A stretch of DNA of 64,000 bases from the human T2T-CHM13v2.0 reference genome, Homo sapiens, in assembly GCF_009914755.1 (NCBI RefSeq), contig NC_060943.1; one strand, given 5' to 3'. The notes below the pieces were generated by a model. That model saw only the letters and a list, made by a program, of their open reading frames with translations, was not told the DNA's origin and ran no database searches. The translations under genes were made by a program, and so were the position numbers. The first letter of the stretch is position 1; each line of letters opens with the position of its first letter. This document shows positions 30,926 through 32,583 of the stretch, in pieces.

Positions 30926-31139
30926 GAACCACTGGATTGAGGTCTGGCTGGGGCTGAGGCCACAGGGACAGACAGGCACAGGAGGCAACATCTCCCCAGA
31001 GTCCCAGCGTCTAGCTTAGGCAAGTGAGCGCGGAGCAGAAGAAAGCCCCCAAGGCTCAGCGCCTGCCTGGCGGCGAGACCCAGGTGGGTCACTCCGCCAG
31101 AGCTCTGCTGCTCCAGGGGCTGGGGTGGGTGACGGTCAC

Positions 31140-31285
31140 CTCTTGCAGATCTCATCGGCAGCCTCCTGGCTAAAGAGCTGCTGCTGCAGAACGTTGTTGA
31201 GGGCGTGGACAGCACACAGCTCCAGGCGCTGCCGTTCGTGGTACACGGTGGGTGGGCTCGGCTGTGCTCCCGGGGCCTGGGACAT
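31140..31285 (-). CDS. JOSD2: JOSD2 first coding exon (MSQAPGAQPSPPTVYHERQRLELCAVHALNNVLQQQLFSQEAADEICK), catalytic Cys24
   Basis: ATG 31285-31283 after a CAGCAG (NAGNAG) acceptor at 31304/31301; AG|gtgacc donor; YHERQ..LCAVHALNN Josephin signature. Confidence 0.96.
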
Positions 31286-31515
31286 GCCGTCCTCGGCTCC
31301 TGCTGGGGGTTGGGAGGGGGAGAAGGTCCTCAGGGGCCCGGGATCTAGAGGTCCAGCCTCCCAGCAGGCCTTTGGGGCATCGCCATTGATTGAGCTGGGA
31401 CTCGGAGCAGCCCAGGAAGACACTGGGCCCCTGACCCCGCTCCCTGGCAGTCTCCTGGCAGCACACGTCCCTCCATCCCTTATTCCTATTCCTACGAAAA
31501 ACGCTGTCTCTTCTG

Positions 31516-31961
31516 CTCCCCTAGCAACAGAAAACCACCCTCACCAGGTCTCTAAGTAAAAGGGTCCCTATCATGGTCACCTAGCAACAGAGGAACCTGC
31601 CTCCCCGTCCCTAGGTAACCAGGGCGCTCTGTGGTTACCTAGCAACAAAGCCCCCTCCCCACCGCACTAGGTAACAAAGTCTGTCCTCCGAGCACCTAGC
31701 AATAGAGAATCCTCCTCCCCTGTCTCTAGGTGATAGGGTCCCCTCTGGTCTCCTAGCAACAGAAGACTCCCCTTCCCCGGTCATGTAGCAGCGAGGCTCT
31801 CTGCTCTTGTCACCTGGCAACGGGGCCCCCTCCCCAGTCACTAAGCAACAGGAGTTCCTCTTCCTATCACCCAGCAACCAGGCCCCCTCCCCGGACACCA
31901 AGGAATGGAGCCCTTCGCCGACCCGCACCCCAGCCACGGCGCTCGCCCTTTGCCTGGCAAC
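31516..31961. promoter_or_regulatory. Homotypic array of ~14-15 RFX X-box-like motifs (~29-bp period)
   Basis: GTCACCTAGCAAC / GTCCCTAGGTAAC-type 13-mers at 31516, 31548, 31576, 31607, 31634, 31663, 31691, 31722, 31748, 31780, 31809, 31837, 31866, 31894 and 31949. Confidence 0.75.
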
Positions 31962-32460
31962 GCCCCTCACCCCGCCTGCCTCTCCGCTCCACCGAGCCAG
32001 GGGTTTCCGCATCCCCTTCCTGGGCGGCGGCTCTGGGCTCCGAGTGCGGGGCGGGCAACACCGCGCTGACTGGGCAGGCGGGACGGACTACAGCTCCCGG
32101 TGATCCCCGCGCGCCGGACTACGACTCCCGTGGGGCCCCGCGGGACTCCTGCTCCACACGGAACGCCCGGGCCGCGTGGCCCTGAAGTCGGCCGTCGGGC
32201 CTAGGAAATGCCGCACTACAACTTCCGTCGGGCTCCGCGGCAGGTCCCGGAAGTGCGCCTCAGAGGCCCTTCTTTCGCATACGGCCGCGCCCACTACCGC
32301 TCAGAGATTCTAGGAAACTTAGTAGGTAGGCTCTCGCGATAGCTTCCTGGCGCCGCGCTCTCATGGGTGCTCGCCCCCGGCGATGGCGTCATGCGCGGTG
32401 CGCAGACGCAGCGTGACGTCACACAAGGGAAAGGGATCAGAGACGCTAGGCGGTGCGGGG
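31900..32460 (-). promoter_or_regulatory. JOSD2: JOSD2 CpG-island promoter and non-coding exon 1 (candidate donor GG|GTGAGG at 31971)
   Basis: Dense CpG; ACTACANNTCCC-like motifs at 32086, 32117 and 32214; ETS CCGGAAGTG 32247; TCTCGCGATA 32332; CRE TGACGTCA 32414. Confidence 0.8.
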
Positions 32461-32476
32461 GGAGGCAGCGGTGATC

Positions 32477-32482
32477 TTTACT
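32477..32482 (-). terminator. ASPDH poly(A) signal variant AGTAAA
   Basis: The only PAS-like hexamer I found between the ASPDH stop (32584) and the JOSD2 promoter. Confidence 0.6.
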
Positions 32483-32583
32483 GAGTCAGAAGGGAGACCC
32501 TGGGGAAGTGGGGCAGGGCAGGGGTGGGATGGTGGTGGTGAGAGGCCAGGCAGATGATCTTGTCTCGGGAGGGAGGAGGCTTC

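What the first reader, a model, noticed from the sequence alone, without database searches (positions are those of the whole stretch)
31516..31961. Periodic, orientation-alternating array of ~14 RFX X-boxes in JOSD2 intron 1
Seen: 13-mers spaced 32, 28, 31, 27, 29, 28, 31, 26, 32, 29, 28, 29 and 28 bp apart. Odd copies read GTNNCCTAGCAAC (e.g. GTCACCTAGCAAC 31576, GTTACCTAGCAAC 31634, GTCTCCTAGCAAC 31748). Even copies among the first eight read the reverse-complement form GTCNCTAGGTAAC (31607, 31663, 31722), giving a ~58-bp dimer period. The spacers are diverged while the motif is kept. Established: GTNRCC(N0-3)RGYAAC is the RFX X-box, and CCTAGCAAC is the MHC-II X1 core. Inference: an unusually dense RFX landing pad immediately downstream of a CpG promoter, possibly coupling JOSD2 or its neighbours to an RFX programme (ciliary, testis, neural) or acting as a nucleosome-excluding hub.
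Basis: partly seen in the sequence, partly recalled or inferred. Interest (0 to 1): 0.75.

Follow-up and report, generated by a model that had tools for sequence, protein, structure and literature searches.

The report
Decayed tandem repeat of RFX sites
Just inside the first intron of human JOSD2 lies an old, worn-down tandem repeat whose best-kept part in each unit is a binding motif for RFX transcription factors, making it a real but fairly ordinary multi-site RFX docking region.

Summary
The periodic motif array is real. It is a decayed head-to-tail repeat of 7 units of about 58 bp. Each unit has an A and a B subunit of about 29 bp. Units are only 47-65% identical, and TRF does not call the array.

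"About 14 X-boxes" is too generous. Three 13-mers match GTNRCCNRGYAAC exactly, three more plus 31949 have one mismatch, and 9 of 14 keep an exact RGYAAC half-site. The array is not orientation-alternating: subunits align directly (0.58), while reverse alignment (0.45) equals the shuffled level.

The block CCTAGCAAC is much better kept than the rest (0.86 against 0.55 column identity). A C-rich block is also kept.

Across the genome this is one of 8 loci with two perfect same-strand X-boxes within 70 bp.

Supplementary tables of a mouse ependymal-cell study list Josd2 among promoters with RFX1, RFX2 and RFX3 ChIP-seq peaks, and as reduced in Rfx2-/- cells. A human U2OS table shows no RFX7 peak and no loss on RFX7 knockout.

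Verdict: a repeat-derived cluster of RFX sites. It is a new member of a known kind, of modest interest.

The parts
31516..31922 (+). Decayed head-to-tail tandem array: 7 units of about 58 bp, equal to 14 subunits of about 29 bp (A and B types alternating)
   Evidence: Spacings are 60, 58, 57, 57, 61, 57. Pairwise unit identity is 0.47-0.65. TRF does not call it.
31576..31588 (+). Perfect X-box GTCACCTAGCAAC (unit 3)
31634..31646 (+). Perfect X-box GTTACCTAGCAAC (unit 5). It is the only unit in which both strict half-sites are exact.
31809..31821 (+). Perfect X-box GTCACCTGGCAAC (unit 11)
31748..31760 (+). X-box with 1 mismatch, GTCTCCTAGCAAC (unit 9)
31837..31849 (+). X-box with 1 mismatch, GTCACTAAGCAAC (unit 12)
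31866..31878 (+). X-box with 1 mismatch, ATCACCCAGCAAC (unit 13)
31949..31961 (+). X-box with 1 mismatch, TTTGCCTGGCAAC. It lies 9-21 nt into JOSD2 intron 1 after the main 5' splice site, and inside the longer alternative exon 1.
31516..31528 (+). Half-site X-box CTCCCCTAGCAAC (unit 1; exact RGYAAC, 2 mismatches overall)
31607..31619 (+). B-type half-site GTCCCTAGGTAAC (unit 4; exact GGTAAC)
31663..31675 (+). B-type half-site CGCACTAGGTAAC (unit 6; exact GGTAAC)
31548..31560 (+). Degenerate unit 2 (3 mismatches). Units 7 (31691), 8 (31722), 10 (31780) and 14 (31894) are likewise degenerate.
31450..31464 (+). Possible outlying remnant unit GTCTCCTGGCAGCAC, 66 bp before unit 1
   Evidence: family D3; PWM score 11.1
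31651..31660 (+). CCCCCTCCCC block of the A-subunit spacer, also at 31826-31835 and 31883-31892. It reads GGGGAGGGGG on the JOSD2 sense strand.
31971..32045 (-). JOSD2 exon 1 (alternative form 31929-32045). The donors GT at 31970/31969 and at 31928/31927 are verified.
   Evidence: Hub annotation

Best explanation
The region is the relic of an old minisatellite. A unit of about 29 bp carrying an RFX X-box became a dimer of about 58 bp and was amplified to about 7 dimers.

Since then the units have drifted to about 55% identity. The 9-nt core CCTAGCAAC, which is a one-half-site X-box, has been kept in nearly every A subunit. A simpler RGYAAC half-site has been kept in several B subunits.

The result is a cluster of about 7-10 usable RFX sites of the same kind, all pointing the same way. 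It lies +84 to +529 from the JOSD2 start, inside intron 1, and 311-756 bp upstream of the divergent lncRNA start.

I infer that RFX proteins occupy several of these sites at once and give the JOSD2 bidirectional promoter a modest positive input. In mouse ciliated ependymal cells the proteins are RFX1, RFX2 and RFX3. In other human cells RFX1 or RFX5 may bind.

Shown: the anatomy, the motif match, the uneven conservation and the genome-wide rarity.

Inferred: occupancy of this array in human cells, the sign of the effect, and selection as the cause of the motif's retention.
For: Anatomy.

Motif:
- 3 perfect sites and 4 one-mismatch sites.
- The window's only 3 strict matches are here, against 0.18 expected.

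Uneven conservation among the 7 units:
- The X-box core columns have 0.86 mean pairwise identity, against 0.55 overall and 0.32 in the tail.
- 13 of 20000 column shuffles reach the observed best 9-column window.
- 7 of 300 uniform-decay simulations reach a 9-mer family of 7 or more copies.
- In the 7 odd units, columns 5-13 (CCTAGCAAC) carry 3 differences in 63 cells, against 7 in 28 for columns 1-4.
- 4 of 7 keep the exact 9-mer, P = 0.0005 at the array's mean decay rate.

Genome-wide:
- There are 12,614 CCTAGCAAC sites. That predicts 1.56 same-strand pairs at gaps of 10-70 nt and 0.0002 triples.
- 25 pairs at 23 loci are seen, and only 2 loci have three in a row, this one included.
- Only 8 loci hold two perfect same-strand 13-mer X-boxes within 5-70 bp.

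Occupancy and dependence in mouse (PMC7498320):
- Supplement Table S6 lists Josd2 under promoters with RFX1, RFX2 and RFX3 peaks.
- The paper counts only 1250 RFX2 peaks genome-wide and defines promoters as -1000..+500 (passages).
- Table S1 flags Josd2 as 'Down low' in Rfx2-/- cells, with logFC -0.41 and P 2.9e-5.

Annotation: the hub's RefSeq table places an 'enhancer' at 31226-31732, over units 1-8.
Against: - There are no human RFX occupancy data for this site. The mouse tables name genes, not peak positions, and I could not see whether mouse has the array.
- In human U2OS cells JOSD2 has RFX7_peak = 0. RFX7 knockout does not lower it (log2FC +0.34 and -0.16 in DMSO; +0.21 and +0.08 in Nutlin).
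- JOSD2 is absent from the 4 supplementary files of a human X-box target survey (PMC5838959).
- The conservation statistics are moderate. If the CpG-free core mutates more slowly, at 15% per site, P rises to 0.055. The simulation uses a star phylogeny without indels. The alignment itself favours matches.
- Six of the 14 units have 3 or more mismatches.
- The mouse effect is small, 1.5- to 2-fold by the table's own legend.
- RefSeq also marks a 'silencer' at 31897-32026, over the TSS-proximal end.
Confidence: 0.55

Rival explanations
1. Neutral relic. The founding unit of a minisatellite happened to contain an X-box-like word, and amplification copied it. The core survives better only because it lacks CpG and homopolymer runs. 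Any RFX binding at the JOSD2 promoter uses another site or has no consequence.
For: - Many young VNTRs carry the same half-site purely by amplification. The triple-site search gave 98 matches, most of them near-identical tandem units. One example is a 30-bp x 17 array with 14 perfect X-boxes.
- The window-wide count of CCTAGCAAC-like words is not above chance.
- At a lower core mutation rate, P is 0.055.
- There is no RFX7 peak or dependence in U2OS.
Against: - The conserved columns are contiguous and coincide with the motif (13 of 20000 shuffles).
- Units are only about 55% identical, yet 7 of 7 A cores are within 1 mismatch of CCTAGCAAC.
- The mouse promoter is bound by three RFX factors, and Josd2 is reduced in Rfx2-/- cells.
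Confidence: 0.25
2. The constraint is not RFX, or not only RFX. One option is the G-rich sense strand. Repeated GGGGAGGGGG runs just after the 5' splice site could act as intronic splicing enhancers, or as a GC-skew and R-loop zone. Another option is that the C-rich block binds MAZ, ZNF281 or SP-type factors, with the X-box word a passenger.
For: - GC skew is -0.28 to -0.41 on the + strand across the array, which makes it G-rich on the JOSD2 sense strand.
- There are 21 runs of G3 or longer against 4 runs of C3 or longer on the sense strand in 471 nt.
- The C-rich block has 0.69 column identity.
Against: - The best-kept block is the X-box core (0.86), not the C-run (0.69). C-runs also align by composition alone.
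- There is no canonical G4 with loops of 12 nt or less.
- There is no Rfam family.
- The factor names for the C-rich block are recalled, not tested.
Confidence: 0.15
3. An MHC-II-type enhanceosome site. RFX5-RFXAP-RFXANK together with CREB, NF-Y and CIITA would assemble on X1-like boxes, tying JOSD2 to antigen-presentation control.
For: - CCTAGCAACAG, present in units 1, 3 and 9, is as I recall it the start of the HLA-DRA X1 box. Two J Exp Med MHC-II papers hold that string in the search listing only.
- The half-site form is the RFX5-type motif.
Against: - There is no CCAAT or ATTGG anywhere in 31300-32400.
- The only CRE-like pentamer is at 32387, far from any X-box.
Confidence: 0.05

Closest known systems
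Promoter-proximal RFX X-box sites of RFX target genes, both the palindromic RFX1-3 type and the one-half-site RFX5/RFX7 type
   Same: It has the same motif: 3 perfect GTNRCCNRGYAAC sites and a kept CCTAGCAAC half-site core. It has the same promoter-proximal position. The mouse orthologue's promoter is listed as bound by RFX1, RFX2 and RFX3.
   Different: PMC7498320 (passages) infers a single site or 2-3 closely spaced sites in most multiply occupied regions. Here there are about 7-10 usable sites in 450 bp, all in one orientation, at about 29/58-bp spacing, downstream of the TSS.
Multiple X-box promoters in C. elegans (DAF-19 targets; PMC3245922, title and abstract start seen)
   Same: More than one X-box serves one gene, and the copies are proposed to tune expression.
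   Different: That work is in a nematode and I saw only the listing. The sites there are not described as a decayed tandem repeat.
Minisatellites (VNTRs) that carry transcription-factor motifs, such as the 30-bp x 17 X-box array at G000:C17:82374583-82375100
   Same: Both are head-to-tail units of about 29-30 bp made of an X-box plus a C-rich spacer.
   Different: The chr17 array is young, with 90% matches, and TRF calls it. The JOSD2 array is 47-65% identical and TRF does not see it. Spacer likeness between the two is only compositional (0.50 against 0.52 shuffled), so common descent is not shown.
MHC class II S-X-X2-Y regulatory module
   Same: It has an X1-like word, CCTAGCAAC(AG).
   Different: There is no X2, no Y box and no fitting S-X spacing. 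It is not a member.

Membership tests
RFX X-box site | Sequence match to 5'-GTNRCC(0-3N)RGYAAC-3' | tested here: met
   There are 3 exact matches and 4 one-mismatch sites in 31516-31961. Nine of the 14 units have an exact RGYAAC half-site. The consensus is as printed in PMC5752003.
RFX X-box site | Occupancy by an RFX protein in vivo at this site | not testable with these tools
   Only indirect evidence is available. Mouse Josd2 is listed under promoters with RFX1, RFX2 and RFX3 peaks, but peak positions are not given. In human U2OS the RFX7 peak flag is 0.
RFX X-box site | Expression of the linked gene depends on RFX | tested here: inconclusive
   From the literature only. Mouse Josd2 is 'Down low' in Rfx2-/- ependymal cells. 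Human JOSD2 is not reduced by RFX7 knockout.
Homotypic cluster of binding sites | Several sites for one factor within a few hundred bp, beyond chance | tested here: met
   Seven positions at up to 1 mismatch fall within 450 bp, the densest such stretch in the window. It is one of 8 loci genome-wide with paired perfect sites and one of 2 with three exact CCTAGCAAC in a row.
Minisatellite / tandem repeat | Head-to-tail units of constant period | tested here: met
   There are 7 copies at spacings of 57-61 bp. Subunits align directly, not reversed.
Minisatellite / tandem repeat | Units alike enough to be called by TRF | tested here: not met
   TRF gives no row for 31516-31961 at a minimum score of 30. 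Identity is 0.47-0.65. It is therefore a relic, not a current VNTR.
Minisatellite / tandem repeat | Copy number varies among people | not testable with these tools
   Only one genome is held.
MHC-II S-X-X2-Y module | X2 (CRE-like) next to X1, and a Y box (CCAAT) downstream | tested here: not met
   There is no CCAAT or ATTGG in 31300-32400. The only CGTCA is at 32387.
Dispersed repeat / transposon-derived element | Other copies elsewhere in the genome | tested here: not met
   A search of the window's own genome with 31500-31930 finds only the region itself. That tool skips simple repeats and very common words.

The most novel reading that the evidence does not exclude
X-box minisatellites may be a small class of copy-number-tunable RFX platforms. 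The JOSD2 array would be an ancient member, held by selection for tens of millions of years as a multi-site pad. It would raise local RFX concentration at a bidirectional promoter, or titrate RFX. The chr17 30-bp x 17 array would be a young, probably polymorphic member. Copy number and core integrity would then set RFX-dependent output.
Probability: 0.1. Interest if true: 0.6.

Novelty: new member of a known kind. Interest (0 to 1): 0.35.

Why it matters
If RFX proteins do load this array, JOSD2 becomes a clear case of a worn-out tandem repeat kept as a multi-site transcription-factor pad. JOSD2 encodes a deubiquitinase with no cilia link found in the searched papers. The array would be a handy natural substrate for asking three questions. 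How does site number affect RFX output? Do half-site and full-site X-boxes behave differently? Does a fixed spacing of about 29 bp matter?

It would also flag JOSD2, and perhaps the divergent lncRNA, as part of the RFX programme in ciliated and neural cells.

If the array turns out not to be bound, it stands as a warning that amplified words in old repeats can mimic regulatory clusters.

Tried and rejected
- The human X-box target survey PMC5838959 has no JOSD2, ASPDH or LRRC4B in the 4 supplementary files held.
- The PMC11344851 supplements (2 files, 2,811 characters) have no JOSD2.
- Two old J Exp Med papers listed as holding CCTAGCAACAG did not show it in the short texts held. The HLA-DRA X1 wording therefore rests on recall.
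- Literature searches for a prior description found nothing on this array: JOSD2+RFX (12 papers, none about this site by title or abstract); X-box+RFX+tandem repeat (14); RFX+minisatellite (9); RFX+VNTR+motif (22); six phrases for multiple or clustered X-boxes (4 papers).
- One search was badly framed and told nothing. JOSD2+cilia gave 9 papers, none holding JOSD2 in its title or abstract.
- A CTCF reading of the B subunit was considered by eye and dropped, because the critical GG of the core is replaced. No tool was run for this.
- Common descent of the JOSD2 and chr17 arrays was rejected, since spacer likeness equals the shuffled level.
- An Rfam scan of 31000-32500 found nothing at E up to 1.
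- Cross-species conservation could not be tested, because no other mammalian genome is held.

Full report

Largely yes. The repeat finder groups seven copies at spacings of 60, 58, 57, 57, 61 and 57 bp.

Aligning the seven units of about 58 bp gives pairwise identities of only 0.47-0.65. Tandem Repeats Finder reports nothing here even at score 30. The feature is therefore an old, decayed head-to-tail repeat, not a current minisatellite.

Each 58-mer has two subunits of about 29 bp:
- An A subunit, with consensus GTCACCTAGCAAC-AGAG...CCCCCTCCCC.
- A B subunit, GTCNCTAGGTAAC-AGGGTC...CTCTG. It is clear in the first four dimers. In the last three dimers it looks more like an A subunit.

**2. How many X-boxes, and which way do they point?**

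I scored the 14 units against GTNRCCNRGYAAC, the consensus printed in PMC5752003 (passage). The results:
- 0 mismatches: units 3, 5, 11.
- 1 mismatch: units 9, 12, 13.
- 2 mismatches: units 1, 4.
- 3 or more mismatches: units 2, 6, 7, 8, 10, 14.
- One further 1-mismatch site lies at 31949-31961.

The strict half-site RGYAAC is exact in 9 of 14 units, always at the right-hand end on the + strand. The strict left half is exact only in unit 5.

The even units fit no better when reverse-complemented (2/3/4 against 2/3/3 mismatches). Whole subunits align at 0.58 in direct orientation and 0.45 reversed, and the shuffled level is 0.46. The array is therefore not orientation-alternating.

One result points the other way. 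A PWM built from the odd units scores units 8 and 4 best on the minus strand.

**3. Is it more than chance?**

Within the window:
- The only 3 strict matches are all in the array, against 0.18 expected, and 0 of 100 shuffles reach 3.
- The plain count of CCTAGCAAC at up to 1 mismatch (12) is not above chance: 14.75 expected, and 82 of 100 shuffles reach 12. What is unusual is that 8 of the 12 sit in one 440-bp stretch on one strand.

Across the whole genome:
- CCTAGCAAC occurs 12,614 times.
- That predicts 1.56 same-strand pairs at gaps of 10-70 nt and 0.0002 triples.
- There are 25 pairs at 23 loci. Only two loci have three sites in a row: this one and C1:31646288-31646368.
- Two perfect same-strand 13-mer X-boxes within 5-70 bp occur at only 8 loci, this one included.
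- A looser triple pattern gives 98 matches. By my reading of the matched strings, nearly all are young, near-identical VNTRs.

So this array is unusual in being diverged yet still rich in the motif. Its DNA has no other copy in the genome.

**4. Is the motif kept better than the spacer?**

Mean pairwise column identity by block:

| Block | Identity |
|---|---|
| X-box core | 0.86 |
| C-rich block | 0.69 |
| B box | 0.57 |
| Stretch after the A core | 0.36 |
| Tail | 0.32 |
| All columns | 0.55 |

Statistical checks:
- 13 of 20000 column shuffles reach the best observed 9-column window.
- 7 of 300 uniform-decay simulations reach a 9-mer family of 7 or more copies.
- Within the odd units, columns 5-13 (CCTAGCAAC) show 3 differences in 63 cells, against 7 in 28 for columns 1-4.
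- 4 of 7 odd units keep the exact 9-mer. P is 0.0005 at the mean decay rate, 0.008 at 20% per site and 0.055 at 15% per site.

What is preserved is the one-half-site form of the X-box, not the full palindrome. PMC8287911 (passages) and PMC5838959 (passage) tie that form to RFX5 and RFX7, and the palindromic form to RFX1-3.

The evidence for constraint is moderate, not overwhelming.

**5. Surroundings**

- The array lies +84 to +529 from the JOSD2 TSS and 311-756 bp upstream of the divergent lncRNA TSS.
- It sits on the CpG-poor shore of the island. CpG o/e is 0.25-0.38 in the array, against 0.8-1.1 at 31900-32499.
- The JOSD2 sense strand is strongly G-rich here. GC skew is -0.28 to -0.41 on the + strand, with 21 G-runs against 4 C-runs.
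- The last site begins 9 nt after the main 5' splice site.
- There is no CCAAT box and no CRE next to any X-box, so this is not an MHC-II-type S-X-X2-Y module.
- No Rfam family matches.
- The hub's RefSeq rows mark an enhancer at 31226-31732 and a silencer at 31897-32026.

**6. Evidence from print**

Nothing I could search describes this array.

*Mouse ependymal cells (PMC7498320).* The supplement lists Josd2 in Table S6 under three sheets:
- 'Promoters with RFX1 peak': the occurrence at part 110 falls within that sheet's parts 101-122.
- 'Promoters with RFX2 peak': part 124, read.
- 'Promoters with RFX3 peak': part 135, read. Aspdh and Lrrc4b are listed beside it.

Table S1 flags Josd2 as 'Down low' in Rfx2-/- cells, with logFC -0.41 and P 2.9e-5. 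The paper reports 7440, 1250 and 9318 peaks for RFX1, RFX2 and RFX3, and defines promoters as -1000..+500 (passages). That range would include an orthologous array. The tables give no coordinates, and I could not inspect the mouse sequence.

*Human U2OS cells (PMC9981735).* The supplementary table gives JOSD2 an RFX7 peak flag of 0 and target flags of 0. RFX7 knockout causes no fall in expression.

**7. Reading**

My best explanation (0.55) is a repeat-derived cluster of RFX sites of the same kind. It would be loaded by RFX proteins and give a modest positive input to the JOSD2 bidirectional promoter.

The rivals are:
- A neutral relic (0.25).
- Constraint from the G-rich sense strand or from factors binding the C-rich block (0.15). 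This is not exclusive of the main reading.
- An MHC-II-type enhanceosome (0.05), whose defining boxes are absent.

**8. Known or new?**

RFX binding at promoters, clusters of sites for one factor, and motif-bearing tandem repeats are all known. The mouse promoter's RFX occupancy is already in a published supplement.

What appears to be undescribed is the architecture: a fossil repeat of 7 x 58 bp that keeps about 7-10 unidirectional X-box cores. I rate it a new member of a known kind, with interest 0.35.

Noticed in passing
G000:C17:82374583-82375100 (L022 783-1300): A young VNTR of 30 bp x 17.2 copies with 90% matches. Its unit is a perfect X-box (GTTACCCAGCAAC) plus a C-rich spacer, giving 14 perfect X-boxes on one strand. 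It has the same build as the JOSD2 A subunit, but spacer likeness is only compositional.
   Followed up: partly
G000:C1:31646288-31646368 (L009 about 1500-1585): This is the only other locus in the genome with three exact CCTAGCAAC in a row. The stretch is non-repetitive and CpG-rich, and also holds GTTGCATAGCAAC. Two of the cores are followed directly by CGTCA or GTCA. It looks like a multi-X-box promoter. I did not identify the gene.
   Followed up: partly
G000:C7:203212-204471 (L023 413-1672): A subtelomeric VNTR of 29 bp x 45 copies whose unit carries the half-site CCACCCAGCAAC. A related 67-bp array appears at C17:288750-289026.
   Followed up: partly
window 32087-32098, 32118-32129, 32215-32226: Three ACTAC(A/G)NCT(C/T)CC motifs lie in the JOSD2/lncRNA bidirectional CpG island. 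The first two form the 31-bp tandem repeat that TRF reports at 32084-32142. They resemble the ZNF143/THAP11 'ACTACA' promoter motif, a name I give from recall.
   Followed up: no
window 31949-31961: An X-box-like site, GTTGCCAGGCAAA on the JOSD2 sense strand, starts 9 nt after the main exon-1 splice donor. It lies inside the longer alternative exon 1, so RFX binding and donor choice could interact.
   Followed up: no
Whole genome: CCTAGCAAC is followed by AGA in 621 of 12,614 cases. About 197 would be expected if the next three bases were random. I did not examine this excess.
   Followed up: no
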